Notes under the pieces: generated by a model
Told to the model about the DNA's origin: nothing
What the model saw: the letters and a program-made list of their open reading frames with translations, nothing else
Databases searched by the model: none
Shown here: one piece after another, positions 31,168-48,600 of the stretch
Layout: each line of letters opens with the position of its first letter
Position numbering within the stretch: position 1 is the first letter of the stretch
Program-made: the position numbers and the translations under genes
Origin: Ostreococcus lucimarinus
Lineage: Eukaryota
Reading direction: 5' to 3' (one strand)
Length of the DNA stretch: 64,000 nt
Assembly (NCBI GenBank): GCA_000092065.1
Contig: CP000591.1

Positions 31168-31490
31168 ACGTCGACGTCGCGCTCGCGCAGGTCGCGCGCG
31201 TCGCGACGCGCATGCGACGCGCCGCGCTCCGCGGTCGACCGCGCGCGCGACGGCGACGTCGACCGCGGTCGGTCGCCAAACCCCGAGCGGATGATTGACG
31301 ACGACGGCAGAGCGCGACGATCGATCGCGCGTCGAGGGCGACGCGAAGCGCGCGCGAGGCAAAACGCGCGAGGCGACGCGCGGCAGACGAAGGCGTCGCG
31401 CGAATCGATTCGACGAAGAATCGAGTCTTCGCGCGATTTGATTTTGATTTGATTTTGATTTGATTGATTCGACGCGACGCGACGCCGGGG

Positions 31491-34400
31491 ATGGAACGAG
31501 GCGCGCGAACGCGCGCGAATGATGCGCGATGGACGCGAGGGACGATCGGGGCGAGAGGTGCGCGCGAACGGCGCGTCGTCGCGGTGAGAGTGACGACGCG
31601 GAGGGTAGGAGGCGACGCGAGCGTCGGCGCGGGAACGTCGAGGACGCGAACGTCGGTGGGGAAAACGCGCGCCGTGAACGGAGAGCGCGATGGTGAAGGC
31701 GGCGCGAACGATGAGGGAGACGCGGTGAGGGAGTACGGGACGTTTGGTTCGAGCGCGTCGTTCGCTCGAGACGCGGCGCCGGGGGAGGCGGCGGCGAGCG
31801 TGGCGGTGTACGTCGCGCGCGCGGTCGCGCTCGTCGTCGTCTCCGATATCGCGGCGTGGACGGTGACGCTGTATGGAGGGGGGATACCGGCCGCGATGCG
31901 CTCGCTGGTGATTTTTGGCGGCATGTCCGTGGTGTACTACGGCGCGTACGTCGCGCGATGGAATCGGTCGATGTTTGATTTGGCGACGCGCTTGGTCGCC
32001 GCGGCGGCGATTGGTTCGAGCTCGGTGATCTTTGGTACCGCTTTGGCGCTGAAAGTGATTCCGAGGCCGATGATGCAAGTGTTGGCCATCTTGCTCGCGT
32101 CGACGGTGGCGCCGCTGTTGGGCGTATACGTCGAAGAGTTGCGTTTGCACCGTACGTCGACGAGGCGTACGAGACTGATGATATTGTCGGACTGCTCGCT
32201 TTACGGTTCGTGGGACGCCGTCGCCGGCACTGTGGCGTGGGCATGCGCCTTCAACCAGTCCGCTGACGCCTTCGGCCCCGCGCTAGCGCAGAGTTCATTT
32301 GTCGCGTTTATCGTCGCCGCCGCGTGTCGTTGGATGCGAGCCATGTACGTATTGTACGTTATCGATCACTGGATCATTCAGACGGTCGCCGCGATGTCGC
32401 AAGAGTTCACAGAGACGGTGTCGCGAGCGACCGTTGTCGTTATGGAAGAAGTTTCGCGAGCGCCGATCGTCGTTAAGGAAACAGTTTCGCGAGTTTCTGT
32501 CGCGATTGCGGAAACGGTGACCCAAACGCCCGACGTGGTTTCGCACAATGACGAATCTCCGCAACCAGTCGCAGAGCCGAAGATGCACGAACGCTCGGAC
32601 AATAACGAAGCCGCCGTCGCGAGCGTAAAAATGCGGGTTGCGAGAGAACCTCAGCCAGTTGTCATGGAGTCGGCGCCTTCATCCGACGCCGCGCCTGTAG
32701 CAGGCGAAAGCGTGAGTGTCACTCAGCAGCCCGATGAACGGCGTATTGAGTACGCGCCTCCGTATACCGCGGTAATTCGTGAGCAGGATCCTCGTCCAGA
32801 ACCGCCGCGTGTCGTATACGCGCCCGCGTTTGTCGTGGTGGAAGAGGCATCGACGTCGTCTTCTACGGAATCCGACGTCACTCAACCGCTCGAGTCAAAG
32901 CGTCGCCGTCGACAGCGGAAGCGACAGTATCGCCGCCGTGAGTCGCTGGCGAAGAATACTATAGACATGAGCGAGATTGTGTCGAAAGAAGTTAACATAG
33001 CGCTGAACATGGGCGTTTCGATTGAGGCGGAGCTTCAGCGCATGTTGGATCGACGTCAATCGACGCTGAACGACATGAAAAACCAGCAAGCGAATCCAAT
33101 TTCTATCGCGCAAGTGGAAGCGGATATTGCCGCGCTGCGTGCTGAGCTGAGACGAGCCACGACATCACGCGAACAATTTCAACGAGCTCAAACGTCGTAT
33201 GAGAGCGATCTAGAGATGTGGATGGAATCGATACGCGCGGCGGCGGCGGTCTCGCGATTGGACTACGCAATCGATTCACTAAAAAACGCATCGGTCGCCG
33301 ACGACCCGCAGGTCAAGGAACTCATTGATCAAAGGGCTGTTTGGGGGTTGCGTTTGGTCAGCTCTCAAATATTTACGATTGTTGAATTGCAGGATTCACT
33401 TGACTCTGGGGAAGCACGTTCTTCCGCGCGCATAGCAGAATTACGAGGAGCTATAGAAAGTTTGGAGCTCAAATTGACTCGTTTGCAAGAAGAAAAGACG
33501 CAGAGCGTCGATAACCGTATTCTTTTGGAGGATCGTCTGCAGAAATTGAATCTTGAAATCGATTCTGTTCGGGAAAGAGAGCGCGTTGCGCAAGAAGACT
33601 GGCAAAGAGAGCGCCTGCGCCTGGAAGTTGAGCTCGAAGCTTCAGTCAAGGAACTTCAAACTGCCACGAGAACCGTCGACGACGCTCTCAAGGCGAAGTT
33701 AGAACTCCTTGCTAAGCTGCAGACCGCTCAAGATCAGAGCGACACTGATGCAGAGGCGATTCGGCGTCTCGAACATGAAACTGAAACTCTGCAAACGAAG
33801 CTCAAGTCCCTCACCGAGCAGCTATCTGTCGCAAATGCTAGTGTTGAACAAATCAATTCGCGTCGATTTGACTTAGAATCGCAACTGCGAGCAAAGGCAA
33901 CTGAGTTAGACTTGGCAAACGCCAATCGTGCCGATACTTCATTAGTTGAAGAGCTGAGGCGTCAAGTGAAGAATCTATCTACGGAGATCTGTTGGCTCAG
34001 AGATCAAAAATCGAGAGAAGGAAGCGAAGCAGAAGCAGTACTTCAAAAGCAACTCGCAGAGGCTCGTACGCAACTCGAAATCCAGCGAAATGAATTAGAA
34101 ATCGAAGCCAAGGCTGAAATTTCCGAATTGAAGCGATCCATGGATGTTATCCGCGAGGAGATGGAACGTCTAACGTCGGAGATGTCAGAGAAGACTGAAA
34201 AGAGTTTAGAGTATCAACGAATAGTTCAAGAGCGTCAAAAAGAGATTGAAAGTCTTACGAAAAACAAAGAGTTGGCCGCTCGCGCAATCGATGAGTCAAA
34301 GAAAAACTTGGCTCAGGCTCAGGAAGCGCTGGAGACGAAGCAAAAAGCACTAGATGACCGTGTTTCTCAGGTTGCAAGCTTATCTTTGGATCTTGCAGCG

Positions 34401-37400
34401 AGTGAGGAGAAAACGCTCACTCTTGAGCGCGAACTCTCAGCATCATGTCAACGCTCACAAGAGCTCGAAGAACTCATCTCCAGTCTTCGCTCGTACTCAG
34501 AATCACGCGATGCCTTGCTTGCTGACATAGATTTACTTCTCGGCAACGAAAACGACGAGCGCGAAGCGATGTTACGAGGCAGTAAGAACGCATCTGACCT
34601 CGTTGAGCGCATACAGAAACGTCTTCGAAGAGAAGTTGTCCTCGAGAAGAAGCTTGACCAAGCTCAGCTGCTCGAACAGGTAGGTCTCACAGTCGAAGAA
34701 TTGAAAACACGTGAAGCCGCATCACTTTGGTGGAAGGATCTAGTTCAAATTGGTTCTAAGGCTCTGGAAACGATTCAGAGCACCGCAGTGGATCTATCTA
34801 AGGGGACAGTCACGGCTTCATTGTTAGAGCGATCGATCAGTCTACGAGCGAAAGAGCTGCAGAATATCACCAGCGAACCGCAATACCAGAGATTGCAAAA
34901 AAGCTTCAATGATCTGAAGCGTCTTTCCGAAGCCGCAGAGCGAAAGTTGCAAGAAAAAGAGCGAAAGATAAAATCATTGAAGGCCGATAGCAAAGAGTCA
35001 GCTGCGGAATTGAAGGCGCTTACCTCAGAATTGGCCTCCGTGAAAGAAGATCTTAAATACATCAGAGATATTGCAAAAGAAGAGCGTGATGAACAGATTC
35101 AGCGCATAGAATCTCTCATGTTAGAGGTTGATTCATTCGAAAACGCCAAATTTGATGGTGAAGAGGCAGTACGCTTTAGAAACGAAGCAGCGAAGCTTCG
35201 AGGGATGAAAATTCGGTTGGAAGCTGAGCTCAAGTTGAGTCAAGATCTCGCAGAGACAGCGAGCAGCGAACTGGCTCGAGCTCGCGAAGAGCACGATGTC
35301 GTCATCACGCAGTTGAGTGAAGAAATAGCAGCTCTTGAACTCGACATCACAGTTAAATCTGAAGCGATCGAAAAGTTGGAGTCAAAGACGAATAATATTG
35401 AGGTCAAGTTGGGCTCCGATCTTGAGAGCGCGTTAGCAAAACTGAACACCACGCTCGAAGAACTCGATAAAAAGTCCACGGATTTTGCATCTCTTGAAAG
35501 CGCATCGGTTGAACAAAAGCGAAACTTTGAGAAGCACGTGGACGAGCTTGAAAAGCGCCTGGGTGCTTCCGAGGCTGAAGTGCAAAGATTGATACAAGAT
35601 AGAGATCTGGCTATTGAGGCCAAAGACAACGAAATGGTTTCGAAAATTCTTTCGCAGTCCGCTATCGTGTCCGATCTCGAGTCTGAGCGCGACGCGCTGC
35701 GTTCGCAGCTCGCCGACCTTTCGTCCGCTCGCGACTCTGAGCTGGCGTCTGTGCGCGCGGATCTTGAGTCCCAGCTTCGCGAGCGCGAGGAGGACATCGA
35801 GCGCGTGCGTTCTGAGCTCGACGAGTCCAAGGCGGCACTTGAGTCTGAGCGCGACGCGCTGCAGTCGGAGCTCGAGCGCGTGCTTTCTCAGGTGCCCGAG
35901 GTTGACGCGTCGCAGTCCGCTATCGTGTCCGATCTCGAGTCTGAGCGCGACGCGCTGCGTTCGCAGCTCGCCGACCTTTCGTCCGCTCGCGACTCTGAGT
36001 TGGCGTCTGTGCGCGCGGATCTTGAGTCCCAGCTTCGCGAGCGCGAGGAGGACATCGAGCGCGTGCGTTCTGAGCTCGACGAGTCCAAGGCGGCACTTGA
36101 GTCTGAGCGCGACGCGCTGCAGTCGGAGCTCGAGCGCGTGCTTTCTCAGGTGCCCGAGGTTGACGCGTCGCAGTCCGCTGCCGTGTCCGATCTCGAGTCT
36201 GAGCGCGACGCGCTGCGTTCGCAGCTCGCCGACCTTTCGTCCGCTCGCGACTCTGAGTTGGCGTCTGTGCGCGCGGATCTTGAGTCCCAGCTTCGCGAGC
36301 GCGAGGAGGACATCGAGCGCGTGCGTTCTGAGCTCGACGAGTCCAAGGCGGCACTTGAGTCTGAGCGCGACGCGCTGCAGTCGGAGCTCGAGCGCGTGCT
36401 TTCTCAGGTGCCCGAGGTTGACGCGTCGCAGTCCGCTATCGTGTCCGATCTCGAGTCTGAGCGCGACGCGCTGCGTTCGCAGCTCGCCGACCTTTCGTCC
36501 GCTCGCGACTCTGAGTTGGCGTCTGTGCGCGCGGATCTTGAGTCCCAGCTTCGCGAGCGCGAGGAGGACATCGAGCGCGTGCGTTCTGAGCTCGACGAGT
36601 CCAAGGCGGCACTTGAGTCTGAGCGCGACGCGCTGCAGTCGGAGCTCGAGCGCGTGCTTTCTCAGGTGCCCGAGGTTGACGCGTCGCAGTCCGCTGCCGT
36701 GTCCGATCTCGAGTCTGAGCGCGACGCGCTGCGTTCGCAGCTCGCCGACCTTTCGTCCGCTCGCGACTCTGAGTTGGCGTCTGTGCGCGCGGATCTTGAG
36801 TCCCAGCTTCGCGAGCGCGAGGAGGACATCGAGCGCGTGCGTTCTGAGCTCGACGAGTCCAAGGCGGCACTTGAGTCTGAGCGCGACGCGCTGCAGTCGG
36901 AGCTCGAGCGCGTGCTTTCTCAGGTGCCCGAGGTTGACGCGTCGCAGTCCGCTATCGTGTCCGATCTCGAGTCTGAGCGCGACGCGCTGCGTTCGCAGCT
37001 CGCCGACCTTTCGTCCGCTCGCGACTCTGAGTTGGCGTCTGTGCGCGCGGATCTTGAGTCCCAGCTTCGCGAGCGCGAGGAGGACATCGAGCGCGTGCGT
37101 TCTGAGCTCGACGAGTCCAAGGCGGCACTTGAGTCTGAGCGCGACGCGCTGCAGTCGGAGCTCGAGCGCGTGCTTTCTCAGGTGCCCGAGGTTGACGCGT
37201 CGCAGTCCGCTGCCGTGTCCGATCTCGAGTCTGAGCGCGACGCGCTGCGTTCGCAGCTCGCCGACCTTTCGTCCGCTCGCGACTCTGAGTTGGCGTCTGT
37301 GCGCGCGGATCTTGAGTCCCAGCTTCGCGAGCGCGAGGAGGACATCGAGCGCGTGCGTTCTGAGCTCGACGAGTCCAAGGCGGCACTTGAGTCTGAGCGC

Positions 37401-40400
37401 GACGCGCTGCAGTCGGAGCTCGAGCGCGTGCTTTCTCAGGTGCCCGAGGTTGACGCGTCGCAGTCCGCTGCCGTGTCCGATCTCGAGTCTGAGCGCGACG
37501 CGCTGCGTTCGCAGCTCGCCGACCTTTCGTCCGCTCGCGACTCTGAGTTGGCGTCTGTGCGCGCGGATCTTGAGTCCCAGCTTCGCGAGCGCGAGGAGGA
37601 CATCGAGCGCGTGCGTTCTGAGCTCGACGAGTCCAAGGCGGCACTTGAGTCTGAGCGCGACGCGCTGCAGTCGGAGCTCGAGCGCGTGCTTTCTCAGGTG
37701 CCCGAGGTTGACGCGTCGCAGTCCGCTGCCGTGTCCGATCTCGAGTCTGAGCGCGACGCGCTGCGTTCGCAGCTCGCCGACCTTTCGTCCGCTCGCGACT
37801 CTGAGTTGGCGTCTGTGCGCGCGGATCTTGAGTCCCAGCTTCGCGAGCGCGAGGAGGACATCGAGCGCGTGCGTTCTGAGCTCGACGAGTCCAAGGCGGC
37901 ACTTGAGTCTGAGCGCGACGCGCTGCAGTCGGAGCTCGAGCGCGTGCTTTCTCAGGTGCCCGAGGTTGACGCGTCGCAGTCCGCTGCCATGTCCGATCTC
38001 GAGTCTGAGCGCGACGCGCTGCGTTCGCAGCTCTCTGAGCTTCGTCAAATGTCCTCCGAATCCATCGCAGGACTCCAGCAGCAATTAGTCGCATTTTCGG
38101 CGGAGGCGGACTCTGCGGCTTCCTTGAGAAAAACAGTTAAAGAGTTGAAGGCAACTATCAGACAGCGCGAAAATTTGCTTTCTGAAACGGTGTTCGATCC
38201 GATGTTGAATGATGACTTGGACCGTATGAACGATGAGCTTGCATCGAAGAGTGCGGAACTAGATTCTGCACGGACGAAGTTGCAGTCGACTCTTAATAAG
38301 TTAAAAGAACGCGAGGAGCAGGCTGAATCTTCGCAAGCTGTTGCAAGTGCTGTCATAGATGAGATCCGCGCCGAGCTTTTGAATGCAAACGAAAAGTTGG
38401 CTGCTCGTGAGTCATACGCCAACGCTGTTGAGTTGGCGCTGCGGTCAGAACTCACAGAAAGAGAGAAAGAAATTGCGCTTTTGCGTGTCAAGGTAGCTAA
38501 AATTCTCGATGACAGCACGAACAAGCAGACAAGTCTCACCACTGCGCTCGATTCTGCGCAGTCTGAGATTGAGCGCCTCACTCGCGAGCTCGAGGATGTT
38601 GAGCAGAGCAAGCAAGTGGCCATGAAGGAGTCATTTGAGCGCAACGAATCGCAGATTGCGTCTCTGAACGCCGCGCACCGCGAGTTGGATCAGCGCCTGC
38701 GAGACGAGCTCGACGCGGCGCTCAAAGCGAAGGCAAGTCTTGAGAAGGAGCTCAGCGACCGCGCGGAATCCACCGCTGCTACCGAAACAGCGAAGCGCAA
38801 CGCCGAAGCACTGAGCGAAAGCTTGCAATCGCAGCTTGATGCACTGTCCACGCAGCGTGCTGAGCTCGAGCAGCGGCTGGTCAAGCGCGAGGAGGAGCTC
38901 GTCGCTGAGCTTGACGCAGCCAAGCATGAAGCCACAGCGCAGGCCGCACGTTTTGCACAACTTGGCGAGGCGGCCTCAGATCACGCACACGACGAGGTTG
39001 ATAAACTTAAGTCCGAAGTGGAACGACTCGAGTTTGAGCTCGGCGCTGTGAAAAACGAGCTGACAAGCGCGACGTCGACTGCGAAAGCGGACATTGCGAG
39101 GCTTACGGATGAACTTGCAAGCGCCAGCGCCGCGCGAGACGCCGTGGCTGAAACCGCTCATCCAGAAGAAGACGGGTCATCGGAGTCCGCATCGGCGTTC
39201 GAAGCCATGAGACGCGACATGACTCGTCTCGAGTCGGAGCTTGCCGCCGCTCTCGCGGAGCTTGCGGAGCTCGAATCGCCTCGCGAGTCAGAGTCCTCAG
39301 ATACTGAAGCTATTCGCGAGTTCACCACTGCGCTCGATTCTGCGCAGTCTGAGATTGAGCGCCTCACTCGCGAGCTCGAGGATGTTGAGCAGAGCAAGCA
39401 AGTGGCCATGAAGGAGTCATTTGAGCGCAACGAATCGCAGATTGCGTCTCTGAACGCCGCGCACCGCGAGTTGGATCAGCGCCTGCGAGACGAGCTCGAC
39501 GCGGCGCTCAAAGCGAAGGCAAGTCTTGAGGAGCGCAGCGACCGCGCGGAATCCACCGCTGCTACCGAAACAGCGAAGCGCAACGCCGAAGCACTGAGCG
39601 AAAGCTTGCAATCGCAGCTTGATGCACTGTCCACGCAGCGTGCTGAGCTCGAGCAGCGGCTAGTCAAGCGCGAGGAGGAGCTCGTCGCTGAGCTTGACGC
39701 AGCCAAGCATGAAGCCACAGCGCAGGCCGCACGTTTTGCACAACTTGGCGAGGCGGCCTCAGATCACGCACACGACGAGGTTGATAAACTTAAGTCCGAA
39801 GTGGAACGACTCGAGTTTGAGCTCGGCGCTGTGAAAAACGAGCTGACAAGCGCGACGTCGACTGCGAAAGCGGACATTGCGAGGCTTACGGATGAACTTG
39901 CAAGCGCCAGCGCCGCGCGAGACGCCGTGGCTGAAACCGCTCATCCAGAAGAAGACGGGTCATCGGAGTCCGCATCGGCGTTCGAAGCCATGAGACGCGA
40001 CATGACTCGTCTCGAGTCGGAGCTTGCCGCCGCTCTCGCGGAGCTTGCGGAGCTCGAATCGCCTCGCGAGTCAGAGTCCTCAGATACTGAAGCTATTCGC
40101 GAGTTCACCACTGCGCTCGATTCTGCGCAGTCTGAGATTGAGCGCCTCACTCGCGAGCTCGAGGATGTTGAGCAGAGCAAGCAAGTGGCCATGAAGGAGT
40201 CATTTGAGCGCAACGAATCGCAGATTGCGTCTCTGAACGCCGCGCACCGCGAGTTGGATCAGCGCCTGCGAGACGAGCTCGACGCGGCGCTCAAAGCGAA
40301 GGCAAGTCTTGAGAAGGAGCGCAGCGACCGCGCGGAATCCACCGCTGCTACCGAAACAGCGAAGCGCAACGCCGAAGCACTGAGCGAAAGCTTGCAATCG

Positions 40401-42632
40401 CAGCTTGATGCACTGTCCACGCAGCGTGCTGAGCTCGAGCAGCGGCTAGTCAAGCGCGAGGAGGAGCTCGTCGCTGAGCTTGACGCAGCCAAGCATGAAG
40501 CCACAGCGCAGGCCGCACGTTTTGCACAACTTGGCGAGGCGGCCTCAGATCACGCACACGACGAGGTTGATAAACTTAAGTCCGAAGTGGAACGACTCGA
40601 GTTTGAGCTCGGCGCTGTGAAAAACGAGCTGACAAGCGCGACGTCGACTGCGAAAGCGGACATTGCGAGGCTTACGGATGAACTTGCAAGCGCCAGCGCC
40701 GCGCGAGACGCCGTGGCTGAAACCGCTCATCCAGAAGAAGACGGGTCATCGGAGTCTGCATCGGCGTTCGAAGCCATGAGACGCGACATGACTCGTCTCG
40801 AGTCGGAGCTTGCCGCCGCTCTCGCGGAGCTTGCGGAGCTCGAATCGCCTCGCGAGTCAGAGTCCTCAGATACTGAAGCTATTCGCGAGTTCACCACTGC
40901 GCTCGATTCTGCGCAGTCTGAGATTGAGCGCCTCACTCGCGAGCTCGAGGATGTTGAGCAGAGCAAGCAAGTGGCCATGAAGGAGTCATTTGAGCGCAAC
41001 GAATCGCAGATTGCGTCTCTGAACGCCGCGCACCGCGAGTTGGATCAGCGCCTGCGAGACGAGCTCGACGCGGCGCTCAAAGCGAAGGCAAGTCTTGAGA
41101 AGGAGCTCAGCGACCGCGCGGAATCCACCGCTGCTACCGAAATAGCGAAGCGCAACGCCGAAGCACTGAGCGAAAGCTTGCAATCGCAGCTTGATGCTTC
41201 TCGCGCTGAAGAGGCGAAGCTCCGTGATGAGCTCAATCATTTTCAGGAGCTTGCACGAGAGGAGATTTCAGCACTCCATAATGAAATTACCGAAATAAAA
41301 TTCACGTCGCAAGAAAGTCAAGCGTCGCTTGGAGAATCACCGTGGCCGAGTATCACAATTTCCACCCTTGCGGGTCTTAACGAGATGATGTCTCGGGGAT
41401 CTGAATTCGGGAGTGAAGGCTTAGATTGGCTTGAGCACGCCGCACACGAAGTACAAGCGCTTGAAAAGTCCGTGTTGGATGCGACGGCTGAGCTCGAGTT
41501 ACGAGAGAATGAATATGAACAAACTATTGCACAGTTGCAAGATAGTGTTCGTGACGCGGAAACTGACCTCAACTCGCAGAAGAGTCTGGCTAGCGCAGCT
41601 TTGAGCGACGTCGAGCATCTGAATGATAAATTGGCCGAACGCGATGAGGAGCTGGCATCACTCCGGCTCGAACTCGCGAACTTGGTTTCAGATGACGTCA
41701 CACGCGAGCTTGAATTAACGATCAGTAATTTGAGGATACAGCTGACCGCAAAAGATAACGAGTTGAATGGAGCTGTCGCGTCGTTGAATGATTTGGAAAA
41801 CGACAAGAGAGCTATAGAAGAAGCAATGTCCGAACTACAAGCTGCAGCTGACATGCAAGCAGCTCGAGTGCAAACATCGATTGAGCAAATATCAAGTTTG
41901 AATGTTGAGCTGGCCAAGCGCTCTGCAGCTCTTGATGCTAGTTGGGATAATCTTTCTCACGCTGAATCACGCGCACGTTTTGCCGAGCAAGAGCGAGACG
42001 ACGTTCGCCGGCTTTTTGAGGAGCGACTTGCTGTGAAAGAGCGAGCACTACGCGAGACACAAGGAGATGTTGAACATCTTCGTCAGACGGTGCGTAATCT
42101 TCAGGATAAATTGAAAGCACATAGATATGCACGTTCTGAGACCGAAGCTGGTCATCCAGAAGAAGACGGGTCATCGGAGTCTGCATCGGCGTTCGAAGCC
42201 ATGAGACGCGACATGACTCGTCTCGAGTCGGAGCTTGCCGCCGCTCTCGCGGAGCTTGCGGAGCTCGAATCGCCTCGCGAGTCAGAGTCCTCAGATACTG
42301 AAGCTATTCGCGAGTTCACCACTGCGCTCGATTCTGCGCAGTCTGAGATTGAGCGCCTCACTCGCGAGCTCGAGGATGTTGAGCAGAGCAAGCAAGTGGC
42401 CATGAAGGAGTCATTTGAGCGCAACGAATCGCAGATTGCGTCTCTGAACGCCGCGCACCGCGAGTTGGATCAGCGCCTGCGAGACGAGCTCGACGCGGCG
42501 CTCAAAGCGAAGGCAAGTCTTGAGAAGGAGCTCAGCGACCGCGCGGAATCCACCGCTGCTACCGAAACAGCGAAGCGCAACGCCGAAGCACTGAGCGAAA
42601 GCTTGCAATCGCAGCTTGATGGAAAAACTTGA
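31491..42632 (+). CDS. Giant membrane-anchored coiled-coil repeat protein, part A (about 3700 aa): N-terminal multi-TM domain, then about 10 kb of coiled coil carrying 258-bp and 786-bp tandem repeat arrays
   Basis: One continuous frame runs from the first ATG at 31491 (the track starts at a TTG, 31464) to the stop at 42630-42632. The coiled-coil frame (E/L/R/A/S-rich, e.g. SDLESERDALRSQLADLSSARDSELASVRADLESQLREREEDIERVRSELDESKAALESERDALQSELERV) stays open through both the repeats and the unique AT-richer spacers. The stop lies exactly at a repeat junction (see gene B). Confidence 0.75.
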   Translation: MERGARTRANDARWTRGTIGARGARERRVVAVRVTTRRVGGDASVGAGTSRTRTSVGKTRAVNGERDGEGGANDEGDAVREYGTFGSSASFARDAAPGEAAASVAVYVARAVALVVVSDIAAWTVTLYGGGIPAAMRSLVIFGGMSVVYYGAYVARWNRSMFDLATRLVAAAAIGSSSVIFGTALALKVIPRPMMQVLAILLASTVAPLLGVYVEELRLHRTSTRRTRLMILSDCSLYGSWDAVAGTVAWACAFNQSADAFGPALAQSSFVAFIVAAACRWMRAMYVLYVIDHWIIQTVAAMSQEFTETVSRATVVVMEEVSRAPIVVKETVSRVSVAIAETVTQTPDVVSHNDESPQPVAEPKMHERSDNNEAAVASVKMRVAREPQPVVMESAPSSDAAPVAGESVSVTQQPDERRIEYAPPYTAVIREQDPRPEPPRVVYAPAFVVVEEASTSSSTESDVTQPLESKRRRRQRKRQYRRRESLAKNTIDMSEIVSKEVNIALNMGVSIEAELQRMLDRRQSTLNDMKNQQANPISIAQVEADIAALRAELRRATTSREQFQRAQTSYESDLEMWMESIRAAAAVSRLDYAIDSLKNASVADDPQVKELIDQRAVWGLRLVSSQIFTIVELQDSLDSGEARSSARIAELRGAIESLELKLTRLQEEKTQSVDNRILLEDRLQKLNLEIDSVRERERVAQEDWQRERLRLEVELEASVKELQTATRTVDDALKAKLELLAKLQTAQDQSDTDAEAIRRLEHETETLQTKLKSLTEQLSVANASVEQINSRRFDLESQLRAKATELDLANANRADTSLVEELRRQVKNLSTEICWLRDQKSREGSEAEAVLQKQLAEARTQLEIQRNELEIEAKAEISELKRSMDVIREEMERLTSEMSEKTEKSLEYQRIVQERQKEIESLTKNKELAARAIDESKKNLAQAQEALETKQKALDDRVSQVASLSLDLAASEEKTLTLERELSASCQRSQELEELISSLRSYSESRDALLADIDLLLGNENDEREAMLRGSKNASDLVERIQKRLRREVVLEKKLDQAQLLEQVGLTVEELKTREAASLWWKDLVQIGSKALETIQSTAVDLSKGTVTASLLERSISLRAKELQNITSEPQYQRLQKSFNDLKRLSEAAERKLQEKERKIKSLKADSKESAAELKALTSELASVKEDLKYIRDIAKEERDEQIQRIESLMLEVDSFENAKFDGEEAVRFRNEAAKLRGMKIRLEAELKLSQDLAETASSELARAREEHDVVITQLSEEIAALELDITVKSEAIEKLESKTNNIEVKLGSDLESALAKLNTTLEELDKKSTDFASLESASVEQKRNFEKHVDELEKRLGASEAEVQRLIQDRDLAIEAKDNEMVSKILSQSAIVSDLESERDALRSQLADLSSARDSELASVRADLESQLREREEDIERVRSELDESKAALESERDALQSELERVLSQVPEVDASQSAIVSDLESERDALRSQLADLSSARDSELASVRADLESQLREREEDIERVRSELDESKAALESERDALQSELERVLSQVPEVDASQSAAVSDLESERDALRSQLADLSSARDSELASVRADLESQLREREEDIERVRSELDESKAALESERDALQSELERVLSQVPEVDASQSAIVSDLESERDALRSQLADLSSARDSELASVRADLESQLREREEDIERVRSELDESKAALESERDALQSELERVLSQVPEVDASQSAAVSDLESERDALRSQLADLSSARDSELASVRADLESQLREREEDIERVRSELDESKAALESERDALQSELERVLSQVPEVDASQSAIVSDLESERDALRSQLADLSSARDSELASVRADLESQLREREEDIERVRSELDESKAALESERDALQSELERVLSQVPEVDASQSAAVSDLESERDALRSQLADLSSARDSELASVRADLESQLREREEDIERVRSELDESKAALESERDALQSELERVLSQVPEVDASQSAAVSDLESERDALRSQLADLSSARDSELASVRADLESQLREREEDIERVRSELDESKAALESERDALQSELERVLSQVPEVDASQSAAVSDLESERDALRSQLADLSSARDSELASVRADLESQLREREEDIERVRSELDESKAALESERDALQSELERVLSQVPEVDASQSAAMSDLESERDALRSQLSELRQMSSESIAGLQQQLVAFSAEADSAASLRKTVKELKATIRQRENLLSETVFDPMLNDDLDRMNDELASKSAELDSARTKLQSTLNKLKEREEQAESSQAVASAVIDEIRAELLNANEKLAARESYANAVELALRSELTEREKEIALLRVKVAKILDDSTNKQTSLTTALDSAQSEIERLTRELEDVEQSKQVAMKESFERNESQIASLNAAHRELDQRLRDELDAALKAKASLEKELSDRAESTAATETAKRNAEALSESLQSQLDALSTQRAELEQRLVKREEELVAELDAAKHEATAQAARFAQLGEAASDHAHDEVDKLKSEVERLEFELGAVKNELTSATSTAKADIARLTDELASASAARDAVAETAHPEEDGSSESASAFEAMRRDMTRLESELAAALAELAELESPRESESSDTEAIREFTTALDSAQSEIERLTRELEDVEQSKQVAMKESFERNESQIASLNAAHRELDQRLRDELDAALKAKASLEERSDRAESTAATETAKRNAEALSESLQSQLDALSTQRAELEQRLVKREEELVAELDAAKHEATAQAARFAQLGEAASDHAHDEVDKLKSEVERLEFELGAVKNELTSATSTAKADIARLTDELASASAARDAVAETAHPEEDGSSESASAFEAMRRDMTRLESELAAALAELAELESPRESESSDTEAIREFTTALDSAQSEIERLTRELEDVEQSKQVAMKESFERNESQIASLNAAHRELDQRLRDELDAALKAKASLEKERSDRAESTAATETAKRNAEALSESLQSQLDALSTQRAELEQRLVKREEELVAELDAAKHEATAQAARFAQLGEAASDHAHDEVDKLKSEVERLEFELGAVKNELTSATSTAKADIARLTDELASASAARDAVAETAHPEEDGSSESASAFEAMRRDMTRLESELAAALAELAELESPRESESSDTEAIREFTTALDSAQSEIERLTRELEDVEQSKQVAMKESFERNESQIASLNAAHRELDQRLRDELDAALKAKASLEKELSDRAESTAATEIAKRNAEALSESLQSQLDASRAEEAKLRDELNHFQELAREEISALHNEITEIKFTSQESQASLGESPWPSITISTLAGLNEMMSRGSEFGSEGLDWLEHAAHEVQALEKSVLDATAELELRENEYEQTIAQLQDSVRDAETDLNSQKSLASAALSDVEHLNDKLAERDEELASLRLELANLVSDDVTRELELTISNLRIQLTAKDNELNGAVASLNDLENDKRAIEEAMSELQAAADMQAARVQTSIEQISSLNVELAKRSAALDASWDNLSHAESRARFAEQERDDVRRLFEERLAVKERALRETQGDVEHLRQTVRNLQDKLKAHRYARSETEAGHPEEDGSSESASAFEAMRRDMTRLESELAAALAELAELESPRESESSDTEAIREFTTALDSAQSEIERLTRELEDVEQSKQVAMKESFERNESQIASLNAAHRELDQRLRDELDAALKAKASLEKELSDRAESTAATETAKRNAEALSESLQSQLDGKT
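31780..32360 (+). other. N-terminal polytopic membrane domain of the giant protein (4-6 predicted TM helices)
   Basis: Hydrophobic stretches include AAASVAVYVARAVALVVVSDIAAW, MRSLVIFGGMSVVYYGAYV, LVAAAAIGSSSVIFGTALAL, MMQVLAILLASTVAPLLGVYV, AVAGTVAWACAF and SSFVAFIVAAACRWMRAMYVLYVI. Confidence 0.6.
32405..32530 (+). repeat. Short 42-bp (14-aa) tandem repeat, about 3-4 copies of ETVSRxxVVxxE immediately after the TM domain
   Basis: The peptide TETVSRATVVVMEEVSRAPIVVKETVSRVSVAIAETVTQTP is encoded by recurring gtttcgcgag units. Confidence 0.7.
35650..38040 (+). repeat. Tandem array A of about 9.3 copies of a 258-bp (86-aa) coiled-coil unit, with a 516-bp alternation (AIV/AAV variants)
   Basis: Units recur at 35653, 35911, 36169, ... 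with at least 98% identity. Only the first copies (35653, 35911) and every second copy after them carry ...SQSAIVSD...; the rest are ...SQSAAVSD... Confidence 0.92.
38520..41210 (+). repeat. Tandem array of about 3.4 copies of a 786/783-bp (262-aa) coiled-coil unit (TTALDSAQSEIERLTRELEDVEQSKQ...HPEEDGSSESASAFEAMRRDMTRLESELAAALAELAELESPRESESSDTEAIREF). A further partial copy lies at 42150-42620.
   Basis: Unit starts are at 38533, 39318, 40101 and 40887. One copy is 3 bp shorter (LEERSDR versus LEKELSDR). Confidence 0.9.
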
Positions 42633-45600
42633 GTCATTGCGCCGTGAGCACGAAACAAAACTGAACGACATGCGTGAGTCTGCAACACAACAACGCGCGG
42701 ATCTTGAGTCCCAGCTTCGCGAGCGCGAGGAGGACATCGAGCGCGTGCGTTCTGAGCTCGACGAGTCCAAGGCGGCACTTGAGTCTGAGCGCGACGCGCT
42801 GCAGTCGGAGCTCGAGCGCGTGCTTTCTCAGGTGTCTGAGTCTGAGTCTCTGCAGTCCGCTGCCGTGTCCGATCTCGAGTCTGAGCGCGACGCGCTGCGT
42901 TCGCAGCTCGCCGACCTTTCGTCCGCTCGCGACTCTGAGTTGGCGTCTGTGCGCGCGGATCTTGAGTCCCAGCTTCGCGAGCGCGAGGAGGACATCGAGC
43001 GCGTGCGTTCTGAGCTCGACGAGTCCAAGGCGGCACTTGAGTCTGAGCGCGACGCGCTGCAGTCGGAGCTCGAGCGCGTGCTTTCTCAGGTGTCTGAGTC
43101 TGAGTCTCTGCAGTCCGCTGCCGTGTCCGATCTCGAGTCTGAGCGCGACGCGCTGCGTTCGCAGCTCGCCGACCTTTCGTCCGCTCGCGACTCTGAGTTG
43201 GCGTCTGTGCGCGCGGATCTTGAGTCCCAGCTTCGCGAGCGCGAGGAGGACATCGAGCGCGTGCGTTCTGAGCTCGACGAGTCCAAGGCGGCACTTGAGT
43301 CTGAGCGCGACGCGCTGCAGTCGGAGCTCGAGCGCGTGCTTTCTCAGGTGTCTGAGTCTGAGTCTCTGCAGTCCGCTGCCGTGTCCGATCTCGAGTCTGA
43401 GCGCGACGCGCTGCGTTCGCAGCTCGCCGACCTTTCGTCCGCTCGCGACTCTGAGTTGGCGTCTGTGCGCGCGGATCTTGAGTCCCAGCTTCGCGAGCGC
43501 GAGGAGGACATCGAGCGCGTGCGTTCTGAGCTCGACGAGTCCAAGGCGGCACTTGAGTCTGAGCGCGACGCGCTGCAGTCGGAGCTCGAGCGCGTGCTTT
43601 CTCAGGTGTCTGAGTCTGAGTCTCTGCAGTCCGCTGCCGTGTCCGATCTCGAGTCTGAGCGCGACGCGCTGCGTTCGCAGCTCGCCGACCTTTCGTCCGC
43701 TCGCGACTCTGAGTTGGCGTCTGTGCGCGCGGATCTTGAGTCCCAGCTTCGCGAGCGCGAGGACGACATCGAGCGCGTGCGTTCTGAGCTCGACGAGTCC
43801 AAGGCGGCACTTGAGTCTGAGCGCGACGCGCTGCAGTCGGAGCTCGAGCGCGTGCTTTCTCAGGTGCCCGAGGTTGACGCGTCGCAGTCCGCTGCCGTGT
43901 CCGATCTCGAGTCTGAGCGCGACGCGCTGCGTTCGCAGCTCGCCGACCTTTCGTCCGCTCGCGACTCTGAGTTGGCGTCTGTGCGCGCGGATCTTGAGTC
44001 CCAGCTTCGCGAGCGCGAGGAGGACATCGAGCGCGTGCGTTCTGAGCTCGACGAGTCCAAGGCGGCACTTGAGTCTGAGCGCGACGCGCTGCAGTCGGAG
44101 CTCGAGCGCGTGCTTTCTCAGGTGCCCGAGGTTGACGCGTCGCAGTCCGCTGCCGTGTCCGATCTCGAGTCTGAGCGCGACGCGCTGCGTTCGCAGCTCG
44201 CCGACCTTTCGTCCGCTCGCGACTCTGAGTTGGCGTCTGTGCGCGCGGATCTTGAGTCCCAGCTTCGCGAGCGCGAGGAGGACATCGAGCGCGTGCGTTC
44301 TGAGCTCGACGAGTCCAAGGCGGCACTTGAGTCTGAGCGCGACGCGCTGCAGTCGGAGCTCGAGCGCGTGCTTTCTCAGGTGCCCGAGGTTGACGCGTCG
44401 CAGTCCGCTGCCGTGTCCGATCTCGAGTCTGAGCGCGACGCGCTGCGTTCGCAGCTCGCCGACCTTTCGTCCGCTCGCGACTCTGAGTTGGCGTCTGTGC
44501 GCGCGGATCTTGAGTCCCAGCTTCGCGAGCGCGAGGAGGACATCGAGCGCGTGCGTTCTGAGCTCGACGAGTCCAAGGCGGCACTTGAGTCTGAGCGCGA
44601 CGCGCTGCAGTCGGAGCTCGAGCGCGTGCTTTCTCAGGTGCCCGAGGTTGACGCGTCGCAGTCCGCTGCCGTGTCCGATCTCGAGTCTGAGCGCGACGCG
44701 CTGCGTTCGCAGCTCGCCGACCTTTCGTCCGCTCGCGACTCTGAGTTGGCGTCTGTGCGCGCGGATCTTGAGTCCCAGCTTCGCGAGCGCGAGGAGGACA
44801 TCGAGCGCGTGCGTTCTGAGCTCGACGAGTCCAAGGCGGCACTTGAGTCTGAGCGCGACGCGCTGCAGTCGGAGCTCGAGCGCGTGCTGGGAGAGTTGAG
44901 TCAGTCGACTTCGGCGCTTCGGCGCGTTGAGGAGGATCTCAATGCCGCTTTAAGCGACCGCGATGAGTTCGAAGAAGAGAGTGATCGTTTGCGTCGGCGT
45001 CTACCACGACTTGAACGAGAGCATAACGAGTTGGAGGATGCAATGCGCTTGGAAATGGACGAATTGGCTTCAAAGCTTGCAGCGATGTCAAAAGCGCGCG
45101 ATGATCTCGAGAAGGACATGATTGAGCAGAGTGATGGTCTGTACAAGGCACTTGGCAGTAGCCGCGAGGATCTGCAGCGAGAACTAAACGAGGGCAAGAA
45201 GTTACTTGCTCAACGTGAGGCCGAGCTAAAGCGTTTAACTGCCGATTTTTCGTTGAAAGAGCACGCAATTGAGTCTGAGCGAGAAGCACTTGCGACCGAA
45301 TTGGATCGACTGATACACAAGGTGCCAGCCTTGGAGTTGACTACGGCTGAACTAGAGGCTGAACGCGCGGAGTTGCGCGAAAAGCTTGATGATTTGATAG
45401 CAAATCGTGATCAGCTGGCGGCCAATCTGCGAACCGAGAACGATTCGATGTCAGCAGAACTGTCCATGACTCGAGAAGCTCTTGATGAACAATTCAATGC
45501 CGTTACAACACAGCTCCTTGAAACCGATGAGATCATCGACAAGATGCGCAAGGATAACGAAGCTGCAAAGGAAGCAGCAGAGAACGACCGCTTAGCGCTA

Positions 45601-48600
45601 CAAGGTGAGCTTGAGCGCGTGGTGTCGGAATCAAATAAGCTGCGGGCAGCTCAAGCCACGGCCGAGTCTCTTCTACGCGCAGAGCGTGATGATCTCGAAG
45701 ACAAGGTCGAAAAACTTGAGTCATTGCGCCGTGAGCACGAAACAAAACTGAACGACATGCGTGAGTCTGCAACACAACAACGCGCGGATCTTGAGTCCCA
45801 GCTTCGCGAGCGCGAGGAGGACATCGAGCGCGTGCGTTCTGAGCTCGACGAGTCCAAGGCGGCACTTGAGTCTGAGCGCGACGCGCTGCAGTCGGAGCTC
45901 GAGCGCGTGCTTTCTCAGGTGTCTGAGTCTGAGTCTCTGCAGTCCGCTGCCGTGTCCGATCTCGAGTCTGAGCGCGACGCGCTGCGTTCGCAGCTCGCCG
46001 ACCTTTCGTCCGCTCGCGACTCTGAGTTGGCGTCTGTGCGCGCGGATCTTGAGTCCCAGCTTCGCGAGCGCGAGGAGGACATCGAGCGCGTGCGTTCTGA
46101 GCTCGACGAGTCCAAGGCGGCACTTGAGTCTGAGCGCGACGCGCTGCAGTCGGAGCTCGAGCGCGTGCTTTCTCAGGTGCCCGAGGTTGACGCGTCGCAG
46201 TCCGCTGCCGTGTCCGATCTCGAGTCTGAGCGCGACGCGCTGCGTTCGCAGCTCGCCGACCTTTCGTCCGCTCGCGACTCTGAGTTGGCGTCTGTGCGCG
46301 CGGATCTTGAGTCCCAGCTTCGCGAGCGCGAGGAGGACATCGAGCGCGTGCGTTCTGAGCTCGACGAGTCCAAGGCGGCACTTGAGTCTGAGCGCGACGC
46401 GCTGCAGTCGGAGCTCGAGCGCGTGCTGGGAGAGTTGAGTCAGTCGACTTCGGCGCTTCGGCGCGTTGAGGAGGATCTCAATGCCGCTTTAAGCGACCGC
46501 GATGAGTTCGAAGAAGAGAGTGATCGTTTGCGTCGGCGTCTACCACGACTTGAACGAGAGCATAACGAGTTGGAGGATGCAATGCGCTTGGAAATGGACG
46601 AATTGGCTTCAAAGCTTGCAGCGATGTCAAAAGCGCGCGATGATCTCGAGAAGGACATGATTGAGCAGAGTGATGGTCTGTACAAGGCACTTGGCAGTAG
46701 CCGCGAGGATCTGCAGCGAGAACTAAACGAGGGCAAGAAGTTACTTGCTCAACGTGAGGCCGAGCTAAAGCGTTTAACTGCCGATTTTTCGTTGAAAGAG
46801 CACGCACTTGAGTCTGAGCGAGAAGCACTTGCGACCGAATTGGATCGACTGATACACAAGGTGCCAGCCTTGGAGTTGACTGCGGCTGAACTAGAGGCTG
46901 AACGCGCGGAGTTGCGCGAAAAGCTTGATGATTTGATAGCAAATCGTGATCAGCTGGCGGCCAATCTGCGAACCGAGAACGATTCGATGTCAGCAGAACT
47001 GTCCATGACTCGAGAAGCTCTTGATGAACAATTCAATGCCGTTACAACACAGCTCCTTGAAACCGATGAGATCATCGACAAGATGCGCAAGGATAACGAA
47101 GCTGCAAAGGAAGCAGCAGAGAACGACCGCTTAGCGCTACAAGGTGAGCTTGAGCGCGTGGTGTCGGAATCAAATAAGCTGCGGGCAGCTCAAGCCACGG
47201 CCGAGTCTCTTCTACGCGCAGAGCGTGATGATCTCGAAGACAAGGTCGAAAAACTTGAGTCATTGCGCCGTGAGCACGAAACAAAACTGAACGACGTGCG
47301 TGAGTCTGCAACACAACAACGCGCGGATCTTGAGTCCCAGCTTCGCGAGCGCGAGGAGGACATCGAGCGCGTGCGTTCTGAGCTCGACGAGTCCAAGGCG
47401 GCACTTGAGTCTGAGCGCGACGCGCTGCAGTCGGAGCTCGAGCGCGTGCTTTCTCAGGTGTCTGAGTCTGAGTCTCTGCAGTCCGCTGCCGTGTCCGATC
47501 TCGAGTCTGAGCGCGACGCGCTGCGTTCGCAGCTCGCCGACCTTTCGTCCGCTCGCGACTCTGAGTTGGCGTCTGTGCGCGCGGATCTTGAGTCCCAGCT
47601 TCGCGAGCGCGAGGAGGACATCGAGCGCGTGCGTTCTGAGCTCGACGAGTCCAAGGCGGCACTTGAGTCTGAGCGCGACGCGCTGCAGTCGGAGCTCGAG
47701 CGCGTGCTTTCTCAGGTGTCTGAGTCTGAGTCTCTGCAGTCCGCTGCCGTGTCCGATCTCGAGTCTGAGCGCGACGCGCTGCGTTCGCAGCTCGCCGACC
47801 TTTCGTCCGCTCGCGACTCTGAGTTGGCGTCTGTGCGCGCGGATCTTGAGTCCCAGCTTCGCGAGCGCGAGGAGGACATCGAGCGCGTGCGTTCTGAGCT
47901 CGACGAGTCCAAGGCGGCACTTGAGTCTGAGCGCGACGCGCTGCAGTCGGAGCTCGAGCGCGTCATGGACGACGTTCTGAACGCAGAAGCGCTTGCGGAG
48001 CAAGCTGAGCTTATACGCTCGCAGATGCAGGCGGACATGGAGCAACTTGTTGAAGCGCGACAAAGTGTTGAGCAGCGTTTGCAGGATGTGGACAGTGCTC
48101 TTCAGATTTCTTTGAACAAGGTTGCCACGCTTGAGATTGAGCAAGAAAGATTGCGACTCGAACTCTCCGCTTCCGAGAAAGCCTTAGCCGAAAGTGAACG
48201 TGCTAGGTCAGAATCAGACGCAGAAATTCTGGCGCTTAGCGACGAGCTGTCGGACGCTTTGAATGCACGGTTACTTATTGAGCAACGACTTCGTGCGCGC
48301 GACGAGGAACTGGAGACCGCGCGCATCAAACAATCTGAATTAATTACGGAGAATTCAAAGCTCCGAGCTGAACTCATGGATGCCAAAGCAATGGCAGACG
48401 ATTACACTCGGCAGTTGTCTTCAGGGCTATTCGGCGATGAAAAGCGTGTCGAGGCTGGAATTCAACGATTTGACTCTTTCGAGGCGTCGGACACTGGTAT
48501 ATTTGCCACAGACGAAGCAGACGAAGCTTTCGTGACCGCCTGCAATATGGTGCAACGAATTGAAATCTTAGTTCGTCGACAAAAGCAAACGGGCGAAGAA

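What the first reader, a model, noticed from the sequence alone, without database searches (positions are those of the whole stretch)
42560..42700. Reading-frame break exactly at a repeat-to-repeat junction between parts A and B
At 42611-42632 the 786-bp unit is cut off after ...LQSQLD. The sequence then continues mid-sentence into ...(V)EKLESLRREHETKLND..., which in the 1539-bp repeat copies (45706, 47245) is preceded by DKVEKLESL. The junction cagcttgatg|gaaaaacttgag shifts the frame by +1. This places a TGA in frame A at 42630-42632 and creates an ATG at 42619 in frame B. There are three possibilities. It may be an assembly error or collapse inside near-identical repeats, so that the real gene is one roughly 6000-aa protein. 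It may be a genuine recombination scar that split an ancestral giant gene into a truncated part A lacking the CBM20 and a part B lacking the membrane anchor. Or it may be an unrecognised intron. Each has different consequences for the biology of the locus.
Basis: seen in the sequence. Interest (0 to 1): 0.6.

Follow-up and report, generated by a model that had tools for sequence, protein, structure and literature searches.

The report
Break inside one giant starch-binding gene
The frame break is real in this sequence, but the two huge reading frames are halves of one conserved Ostreococcus gene, joined at a deletion-type breakpoint that lacks a conserved piece and is one base out of frame, so it is a sequence-record error or a strain-specific lesion, not a gene boundary or intron.

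Summary
786-bp-unit homology ends at 42621 and 1539-bp-unit homology starts at 42622. Frame A stops at TGA 42630-42632, and frame B (+1) has an ATG at 42619.

The window is Ostreococcus lucimarinus: its PRP8 protein is 100% identical to the strain CCE9901 reference protein. ORF A (membrane-spanning N-terminus plus coiled coil) and ORF B (coiled coil plus CBM20 starch-binding domain) together are collinear with a single O. tauri protein of 5,245 aa, annotated "Carbohydrate binding module family 20". A 4,091-aa relative also carries both end domains.

In a long-read marine contig (L010) that is 100% identical to the window in the flanking repeats, the sequence is collinear up to base 42621. It then continues in frame through the rest of the 786-bp unit, a unique 615-bp linker and a 258-bp array. 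That linker is absent from the whole window. It is conserved in a sister lineage, in clade B and in O. tauri, at this position.

The junction is therefore a non-homologous deletion breakpoint (0-1 nt of shared sequence) inside one gene. An intron, programmed frameshifting and an ancestral two-gene layout are not supported.

I cannot tell without reads whether the lesion is in the alga or only in the record. I lean towards a record artefact (about 0.5) over a real strain lesion (about 0.35). Interest is low to moderate.

The parts
31491..42632 (+). ORF A, the 5' part of the gene: 3,713 aa from the first ATG, ending ...LQSQLDGKT then TGA at 42630-42632.
   Evidence: The N-terminus aligns with O. 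tauri XP_022839880.1 residues 4-888 at 49% identity.
31782..32354 (+). Cluster of hydrophobic segments, the putative membrane-spanning N-terminal domain.
   Evidence: Kyte-Doolittle scan. This domain finds only four homologs among 1.84 billion representatives, two of which belong to CBM20 giants.
35652..38046 (+). 258-bp (86-aa) tandem array, 9.2 copies, in part A.
   Evidence: It is 96-99% identical to the arrays in part B and in the same codon phase.
38532..41197 (+). 786-bp tandem array, about 3.4 copies. I call the two halves of the unit X and Y.
   Evidence: Indels between copies are multiples of 3.
41198..42151 (+). Unique segment U2 (ASRAEEAKL...), which is part of the gene.
   Evidence: It is homologous to O. 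tauri residues 2572-2860 at 42% identity.
42152..42621 (+). Last partial 786-bp unit (tail of Y plus a full X). It ends at the breakpoint base 42621.
   Evidence: L010 positions 1-3295 are collinear with window 39351-42621 and stop matching exactly here.
42621..42622 (+). Non-homologous junction with a +1 frame shift. This is where Y, the truncated copy X', the linker and following sequence are missing relative to L010.
42619..49740 (+). ORF B, the 3' part of the gene: 2,373 aa from ATG 42619.
   Evidence: The C-terminus aligns with O. tauri residues 4652-5231 at 53% identity.
42622..42693 (+). 72-bp 'EKLESL...' tail of the 1539-bp unit, here without the upstream part of that unit.
   Evidence: 42622-43337 matches 47248-47963 at 99.9%.
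42694..44888 (+). 258-bp array, 8.5 copies, in part B.
44242..47963 (+). 1539-bp repeats, about 2.4 copies. Each is a unique part (R3u) plus EKLESL plus 2.5 copies of the 258-bp unit.
   Evidence: offset 1539, 99.1% identity.
48928..49116 (+). CBM20 starch-binding domain, ORF B residues 2104-2166.
   Evidence: Pfam PF00686, 28.9 bits against a cut-off of 23.3.

Best explanation
ORF A and ORF B are the two halves of one gene. That gene is the O. lucimarinus ortholog of the O. tauri 5,245-aa protein with a membrane-spanning N-terminus, a giant coiled coil and a C-terminal CBM20 domain.

The junction at 42621|42622 is a non-homologous, deletion-type breakpoint. At this point at least 1.34 kb is missing: the rest of the 786-bp unit, a further truncated unit, a conserved unique 615-bp/205-aa linker, and the entry into a 258-bp array. 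Probably several more kb are missing too. The two ends are joined one base out of frame.

The single-gene and deletion-breakpoint part is shown (confidence about 0.9). What follows is inferred. I think the lesion is more likely in the sequence record than in the living alga. Candidate causes are a clone-borne deletion, a chimeric read or a forced join made while resolving about 18 kb of 99-100% identical repeats. On this reading the true gene is one ORF of more than 6,000 aa that contains the linker.
For: Organism:
- PRP8 in the window is 2320/2320 identical to O. lucimarinus CCE9901 XP_001420401.1.

Single gene in relatives:
- O. tauri XP_022839880.1 (5,245 aa, 'Carbohydrate binding module family 20') is collinear with the A N-terminus, u1, U2, the L010 linker, R3u and the B C-terminus.
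- P0084 (4,091 aa) has both the N-terminal domain and CBM20.
- The clade B contig L007 holds the X-to-Y-like sequence, the linker homolog and the following repeats in one frame. The L009 contig has a 4,197-aa ORF.
- Sister-lineage P0080/L012 is one 3,783-aa ORF running from the N-terminus into the linker.

The missing piece:
- L010 tiles flanking the linker are 100% identical to the window.
- L010 is collinear with the window exactly up to 42621. It then continues in frame for a 2,378-aa ORF through Y, X', the linker, the 258-bp array, R3u and EKLESL.
- The linker has no counterpart anywhere in the window.

Frame compatibility:
- The repeat-collapsed short-read contig L013/P0077 reads from the membrane N-terminus to CBM20 in one 2,421-aa frame.

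Pointers to a technical origin:
- The left breakpoint falls within 1 nt of the point where the five X copies diverge, which is where read alignments would be clipped.
- The locus is a worst case for assembly.
- Giant repetitive genes in O. tauri also differ between the reference and long-read resequencing (10.1101/2025.04.21.649811).
Against: - A plain repeat collapse would place the join inside homologous sequence. Here the two sides share at most one base, so at least one read or clone must have carried the join.
- Base-level quality of the window is high. There are 0 indels against three independent Illumina contigs over 16 kb, and other indels between repeat copies are multiples of 3.
- L010 is a metagenomic contig of mosaic quality and may represent another strain.
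- Neither the junction nor the linker was found in JGI metagenome contigs.
- I could not see any reads or learn how the record was assembled.
Confidence: 0.5

Rival explanations
1. The lesion is real. The sequenced O. lucimarinus strain carries an illegitimate (end-joining type) deletion inside the giant gene. The deletion removed the linker and neighbouring repeats and shifted the frame. The strain would then make a truncated membrane-anchored protein without CBM20, and part B would be a young, still intact pseudogene remnant.
For: - The junction is blunt or has 1 nt of microhomology, which is typical of non-homologous deletions and not of assembler collapse.
- The assembly is otherwise base-accurate.
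- A random deletion is out of frame two times in three.
- Both ORFs are fully open, as expected for a recent event.
- The linker was not seen in JGI contigs (weak evidence).
Against: - The prior that one particular gene carries a multi-kb loss-of-function deletion in the sequenced clone is low.
- The left breakpoint coincides to within 1 nt with a repeat-divergence point, which is unexpected for a random break.
- A wild contig 100% identical in the flanking repeats has the intact in-frame arrangement.
- The gene is conserved as a single ORF across four other Ostreococcus lineages.
Confidence: 0.35
2. The strain has a real but in-frame rearranged allele, LQSQLD-EKLESL, giving a protein of about 6,082 aa without the linker. 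Only one extra G in the GG at 42621/42622 is a base-calling or consensus error.
For: - Removing one G restores a single 6,082-aa ORF.
- The error would sit next to an A5 run, inside repeats that are hard to polish.
Against: - No indel errors were detected over 16 kb of comparison.
- The reading needs two independent things: a real rearrangement and an error at exactly its junction.
- The conserved linker would still be lost.
Confidence: 0.07
3. This is a genuine, functional gene fission. A (membrane anchor plus coiled coil) and B (coiled coil plus CBM20) are expressed as two proteins. B would be made from an internal promoter, or by re-initiation at the ATG that overlaps A's stop (ATGGAAAAACTTGA).
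For: - An ATG at 42619 lies 11 nt before A's stop.
- ORF B is open for 2,373 aa.
- Polycistronic loci are known in green algae (PMC7896298, title and abstract only).
Against: - No intergenic or promoter sequence exists, because both sides are copies of internal coding repeats.
- Re-initiation after a 3,713-codon ORF is implausible.
- The layout is absent from O. tauri, clade B, the sister lineage and L010.
Confidence: 0.05
4. The frames are reconnected at the RNA or translation level, either by an unrecognised intron or by programmed +1 frameshifting at ACU-UGA-G.
For: - A +1 slip at the stop would read ...GKT-ESLRREH... in frame B (seen directly in the sequence).
Against: - There is no GT in the 112 nt upstream of the TGA. 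The only GT donors that give the required intron length (3n+1) are at 42378 and 42396. They are weak and lie in sequence translated in four other copies.
- The site is not conserved in any relative, all of which read straight through other sequence.
- ACU-UGA is not a known shift-prone context (my own knowledge).
Confidence: 0.02

Closest known systems
Ostreococcus tauri XP_022839880.1 / CEF99515.1, 'Carbohydrate binding module family 20' (5,245 aa)
   Same: It has the same N-terminal hydrophobic domain (49% identity over 942 aa). It has the same order of unique segments: u1, U2, linker, R3u-like. It has the same CBM20-containing C-terminus (53% identity over 588 aa).
   Different: It is one uninterrupted gene model. 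The window version is broken at 42621|42622 and lacks the linker homolog (O. tauri residues 3034-3194). The repeat families are species-specific: X and Y give no BLASTP hit in O. tauri.
The same locus in the wild O. lucimarinus-like contig L010, the sister lineage L012/P0080 and Ostreococcus clade B (L007/L009, Great Barrier Reef metagenome-assembled genomes)
   Same: Synteny is the same: exportin-T, PRA1, CBS, PUF and a metallo-beta-lactamase-like gene upstream, and PTH2 and PRP8 downstream. The repeat families are the same in L010 and L012.
   Different: All of them continue from the X-type sequence into the linker in frame. In clade B the gene is about 24.9 kb. The long-read contigs carry their own scattered frameshift errors, which differ between assemblies.
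Structural discrepancies in giant repetitive genes between reference and long-read resequencing (O. tauri polyketide synthase locus)
   Same: It is a giant modular or repetitive gene in a Mamiellales reference genome whose structure differs from independent long-read data (10.1101/2025.04.21.649811).
   Different: It is a different gene, and the reported difference there is extra modules, not a frame-breaking junction.
Plant coiled-coil starch-granule proteins (PTST2/3, MFP1, MRC)
   Same: This is a lead recalled from my own knowledge only. They are long coiled-coil proteins that combine a starch-binding module or a membrane anchor.
   Different: No sequence relationship was tested or found. 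Those proteins are far smaller, and PTST proteins use CBM48 rather than CBM20. This bears on the gene's possible role, not on the junction.

Membership tests
Ortholog of the Ostreococcus giant protein with membrane N-terminus, coiled coil and CBM20 (O. tauri XP_022839880.1) | Homologous N-terminal hydrophobic domain | tested here: met
   BLASTP gives 49% identity over 942 aa. HMMER over 1.84 billion representatives finds only this family.
Ortholog of the Ostreococcus giant protein with membrane N-terminus, coiled coil and CBM20 (O. tauri XP_022839880.1) | C-terminal CBM20 domain and homologous flanks | tested here: met
   PF00686 scores 28.9 bits against a cut-off of 23.3. The region is 53% identical over 588 aa to O. 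tauri residues 4652-5231.
Ortholog of the Ostreococcus giant protein with membrane N-terminus, coiled coil and CBM20 (O. tauri XP_022839880.1) | Collinear internal unique segments, including the linker | tested here: not met
   u1, U2 and R3u are present and in order. The linker (O. tauri residues 3034-3194; L010 positions 4021-4635) is absent from the window.
Ortholog of the Ostreococcus giant protein with membrane N-terminus, coiled coil and CBM20 (O. tauri XP_022839880.1) | One uninterrupted reading frame | tested here: not met
   There is a +1 shift at 42621|42622 and a TGA at 42630-42632. The locus is therefore a disrupted copy, in the record or in the strain.
Spliceosomal intron | A GT (or GC) donor before the stop and an AG acceptor, with a length that restores the frame, in sequence not otherwise used as exon | tested here: not met
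   No GT occurs at 42518-42629. The frame-compatible GT donors at 42378 and 42396 lie in repeat sequence translated in four other copies.
Programmed +1 ribosomal frameshift site | A shift site conserved among relatives | tested here: not met
   No relative has this junction. L010, L012, clade B and O. tauri read on through different sequence.
Programmed +1 ribosomal frameshift site | Trans-frame protein product | not testable with these tools
   This needs proteomics or ribosome profiling.
Repeat-collapse misassembly | The join lies inside sequence that is homologous on both sides | tested here: not met
   The continuation of X (CACTGTCC...) and the sequence upstream of EKLESL (...GACAAGGTC) are unrelated to their partners, and the overlap is at most 1 nt. 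An artefact would have to be a chimeric or deleted clone, or a forced join.
Illegitimate (non-homologous) deletion, in vivo or in a clone | A breakpoint with 0 to a few nt of microhomology, and loss of intervening sequence that is present in relatives | tested here: met
Illegitimate (non-homologous) deletion, in vivo or in a clone | The junction is supported by independent reads from the organism | not testable with these tools
   No read data were accessible. The JGI contig scan for the junction found nothing, but junction contigs would be too short to be kept.

The most novel reading that the evidence does not exclude
O. lucimarinus has truly split the conserved giant gene into two expressed proteins. 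One is a membrane-anchored coiled coil without CBM20. The other is a free coiled-coil CBM20 protein made from the ATG that overlaps the upstream stop, by an internal promoter, by re-initiation or by +1 frameshifting. This would be a very recent natural gene fission created by one illegitimate recombination between repeats.
Probability: 0.05. Interest if true: 0.6.

Novelty: new member of a known kind. Interest (0 to 1): 0.3.

Why it matters
For anyone using this locus, the two ORFs should not be annotated or analysed as two genes. They are a disrupted copy of one conserved gene of more than 6,000 aa (membrane N-terminus, coiled coil, CBM20), and about 0.6 kb of conserved unique coding sequence is missing from the record.

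The gene itself is uncharacterised. It is restricted to Ostreococcus and close relatives: only four representative hits in 1.84 billion proteins. By its domains it is a candidate tether between a membrane and the starch granule.

If the lesion is real, the sequenced strain is a natural knockout of the CBM20 end, which would be useful. If it is an artefact, the reference needs correcting. Either way the junction is not a new biological mechanism.

Tried and rejected
- **Exact look-ups of ORF A and ORF B.** I tried several start codons against the gene-position and protein collections. Nothing is on record, so the locus seems unannotated.
- **Protein search with an in-frame chimeric junction peptide.** It returned only two X-to-Y fragments. 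The search clearly missed known identical proteins such as P0005 and P0077, so the negative result is not informative.
- **DNA scan of JGI metagenome contigs for the junction.** The pattern allowed 0-8 spacer bases and gave 0 hits.
- **DNA scan of JGI metagenome contigs for a degenerate linker pattern.** It gave 0 hits. Both targets are flanked by repeats, so short-read contigs holding them would be under about 0.9 kb. These negatives carry little weight.
- **Direct alignment of L007 and L009 (clade B).** It was confounded by 315-bp repeats. Only the 621-bp anchor L007 22878-23498 = L009 344-964 could be used.
- **Literature.** No paper on an Ostreococcus CBM20 coiled-coil giant was found. The O. 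lucimarinus genome paper (PMC1863510) is not held, so I could not check how the reference was finished.
- **Evidence of sloppy base calling.** I looked for frame-breaking indels among the 786-bp copies and found none; all indels are multiples of 3.
- **Homology-mediated recombination via the shared CTTGA / AAAACTTGAGTC motifs.** Rejected, because both flanking copies of the motif are retained at the junction.

Full report
**1. What is in the sequence**

The window has two very long + strand ORFs. ORF A runs 31464-42632, with its first ATG at 31491. ORF B runs 42616-49740, with an ATG at 42619.

Self-BLAST and TRF confirm three nested repeat families at 96-100% identity:
- a 258-bp (86-aa) unit, present both in A (35652-38046, 9.2 copies) and in B (42694-44888, 45781-46427, 47320-47963);
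- a 786-bp unit in A (38532-41197, plus a partial copy at 42152-42621);
- a 1539-bp unit in B (44242-47963).

- The 20-mer ending ...CAGCTTGAT occurs five times, and in every copy the next base is G. Four copies then continue with C, and the fifth continues with GAAAAACTTGAG.
- That second motif occurs three times. In the other two copies it is preceded by GACAAGGTC.
- A-type homology therefore ends at 42621 and B-type homology begins at 42622.
- The frames differ by +1. A stops at TGA 42630-42632, and an ATG in frame B lies at 42619.
- Removing one G of the GG at 42621/42622 gives a single 6,082-aa ORF.

**2. Organism and context**

The window is a compact, GC-rich eukaryotic genome.
- PRP8 is a single 2,330-aa ORF, and exportin-T and a PUF protein lie nearby.
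- The PRP8 protein is 2320/2320 identical to O. lucimarinus CCE9901 XP_001420401.1.
- Illumina marine metagenome contigs match window 47.8-64.0 kb at 99.9% identity with zero gaps. Base-level accuracy of the window is therefore high.
- All such short-read contigs stop where the repeats begin.
- Neither ORF A nor ORF B is present in the 15-billion-protein collection.

**3. A and B are halves of one conserved gene**

- ORF A starts with a cluster of hydrophobic segments. ORF B ends with a CBM20 starch-binding domain.
- A full HMMER search of 1.84 billion representatives with the hydrophobic domain gave only four hits.
- One hit, P0084 (4,091 aa), also has CBM20 at residues 3818-3881.
- Another hit's cluster contains O. 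tauri XP_022839880.1, 'Carbohydrate binding module family 20', 5,245 aa.
- That single O. tauri protein is collinear with the window pieces:

| Segment | O. tauri residues | Identity |
|---|---|---|
| A N-terminus | 4-888 | 49% |
| u1 | 1740-1907 | 43% |
| U2 | 2572-2860 | 42% |
| R3u | 3149-3665 | 27-29% |
| B C-terminus | 4652-5231 | 53% |

- In Ostreococcus clade B, the syntenic gene spans about 24.9 kb. These are nanopore plus Racon/Pilon metagenome-assembled genomes from the Great Barrier Reef (PMC13558084).
- Clade B assemblies carry different scattered frame breaks. One contig has a 4,197-aa ORF.
- A repeat-collapsed short-read contig of O. lucimarinus itself (P0077/L013) reads from the membrane N-terminus to CBM20 in one frame. 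The repeats in A and B are thus in the same phase.

**4. What is missing at the junction**

L010 is a 100.8-kb long-read metagenome contig of mosaic quality.
- Some tiles are 89-96% identical to the window with many 1-bp indels. Tiles 3001-9600 and 10501-15900 are 99-100% identical.
- L010 positions 1-3295 are collinear with window 39351-42621. The alignment ends exactly at the junction base.
- From there L010 continues in frame in this order:
  - the X unit ending ...LQSQLD;
  - then Y (ALSTQRAEL...);
  - then a truncated X, called X' (ending ...ELSDRAESTAA);
  - then a unique 615-bp, 205-aa linker (PHGASGDDEELRRQL...DAEERRAK);
  - then thirteen 258-bp units;
  - then R3u;
  - then DKVEKLESL.
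- All of this lies inside one 2,378-aa ORF.

The linker has no counterpart anywhere in the window, by BLASTN with word size 7 or by TBLASTN. It is conserved elsewhere:

| Source | Identity to L010 linker | Position and context |
|---|---|---|
| Sister lineage P0080/L012 | 92% (DNA) | follows X' inside a 3,783-aa ORF that starts at the N-terminus |
| Clade B, L007 22305-22748 | 34% (protein), E 5e-16 | same frame as the X-to-Y-like sequence upstream |
| O. tauri residues 3034-3194 | 34% (protein), E 1e-13 | between U2 and R3u |

That O. tauri position corresponds exactly to where the window has its junction.

The window therefore lacks at least 1.34 kb relative to L010 (positions 3296-4635). 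Of this, 615 bp is unique, conserved coding sequence. The junction is a deletion-type breakpoint inside one gene.

**5. Readings that are rejected or unlikely**

- **Intron.** There is no GT in the 112 nt before the TGA. The only GT donors giving the required length (3n+1) are at 42378 and 42396. They lie in sequence translated in four other copies. No relative has an intron-like gap at this position.
- **Programmed +1 frameshift or stop/start overlap.** The site is unique to this record and absent from every relative. Both flanks are copies of internal coding repeats, so there is no intergenic or promoter sequence.
- **Simple repeat collapse.** The two sides of the join are not homologous and share at most 1 nt.

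**6. Real lesion or record artefact?**

These tools cannot decide this.

For a real illegitimate deletion:
- the blunt join;
- the high base accuracy elsewhere in the window.

For an artefact (a clone-borne deletion in E. coli, a chimeric read or a forced join):
- The region is about 18 kb of arrays longer than a Sanger read at 99-100% identity.
- The left breakpoint falls within 1 nt of the point where the five X copies diverge. That is natural for clipped alignments. For a random break I estimate a chance of about 0.2%.
- A wild contig identical in the flanking repeats has the intact arrangement.
- The prior for a multi-kb loss-of-function deletion in one particular gene of the sequenced clone is low.
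- Reference-versus-long-read discrepancies in giant repetitive Ostreococcus genes have been reported.

My estimates:

| Reading | Probability |
|---|---|
| Record artefact | about 0.5 |
| Real strain lesion | about 0.35 |
| In-frame rearranged allele plus a 1-nt error | about 0.07 |
| Functional fission | about 0.05 |
| Intron or frameshifting | about 0.02 |

Public CCE9901 read sets that could settle it are named.

**7. Comparison, novelty and verdict**

- The locus is the O. lucimarinus copy of a known, though uncharacterised, annotated O. tauri gene. It meets the domain and collinearity criteria. It fails the 'uninterrupted ORF' and 'linker present' criteria.
- The junction is an instance of a known kind of thing: a gene-disrupting deletion or assembly lesion. 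It is not a new mechanism.
- It matters practically, for annotation and for correcting the reference. If the lesion is real, it also marks a natural knockout of the starch-binding end of a giant putative membrane-to-starch tether.
- Interest is 0.3.

Noticed in passing
window 31491-49740; O. tauri XP_022839880.1; P0084: The gene itself is notable. It is a protein of 4,000 to more than 8,000 aa with a multi-pass hydrophobic N-terminus, an enormous coiled coil and a C-terminal CBM20. Only four representative homologs of the N-terminal domain exist among 1.84 billion proteins, which suggests a lineage-restricted family. No paper on it was found. It is a candidate membrane-to-starch-granule tether, which is my inference only.
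   Followed up: partly
window 60771-63977 (-): A 1,068-aa alpha-glucan (starch/glycogen) phosphorylase gene (PF00343, taken from the annotation of the matching metagenome contigs) lies about 11 kb downstream of the CBM20 gene. The next gene but a few after the giant gene is PRP8. A possible starch-related neighbourhood was not examined.
   Followed up: no
window 38532-41197: The copies of the 786-bp unit differ by in-frame variants at one spot: ...SLEKELSD... versus ...SLEERSD... (a 3-bp deletion plus T>G) versus ...SLEKERSD.... The assembly therefore did keep copy-specific differences apart.
   Followed up: partly
window 42694-44888, 45781-46427, 47320-47963 versus 35652-38046: The 258-bp unit has two subtypes, ...SQVPEVDASQ... 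and ...SQVSESESLQ.... The second occurs only in part B and always directly after an EKLESL segment. An I/A variant (SAIVSD) occurs only in the part A array of the window, but it also occurs in the post-linker array of L010.
   Followed up: no
L010 (ENA ERZ10646538 contig_11424), whole locus: This contig is a mosaic. Stretches 99-100% identical to the window alternate with stretches of 88-95% identity. The divergent stretches carry about 1.7% 1-bp indels, and their mismatches are mostly at third codon positions. It looks like a mixed-strain or partly polished long-read consensus of two Ostreococcus lineages.
   Followed up: partly
L007 / L009 (Ostreococcus clade B Great Barrier Reef contigs); clusters: Across the clade B metagenome-assembled genomes the giant gene is cut into different sets of ORFs in each assembly. 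N-terminal ORFs are 541-1,690 aa and C-terminal ORFs are 671-1,755 aa. This indicates residual frameshift errors in repeats of nanopore plus Pilon assemblies. L009 9480-9800 is a garbled stretch between two ORFs that are in the same frame.
   Followed up: partly
window 50579-51766 (+), compared with L003-L005: A hypothetical 395-aa ORF is 387 aa in some wild contigs. The indels of 24-45 nt between the window and L003-L005 are multiples of 3, which suggests natural in-frame length polymorphism.
   Followed up: no
window 41170-41197 versus L012 (P0080): In the sister lineage, the fourth 786-bp copy leaves the repeat earlier (...ELSDRAES|DEINERNFVLDFDNQIDALKSELD|ASRAEE...). In the window the repeat homology extends up to ...LQSQLD|ASRAEE.... 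This looks like a gene-conversion tract that ends at the same site as the junction breakpoint. The coincidence is unexplained.
   Followed up: partly
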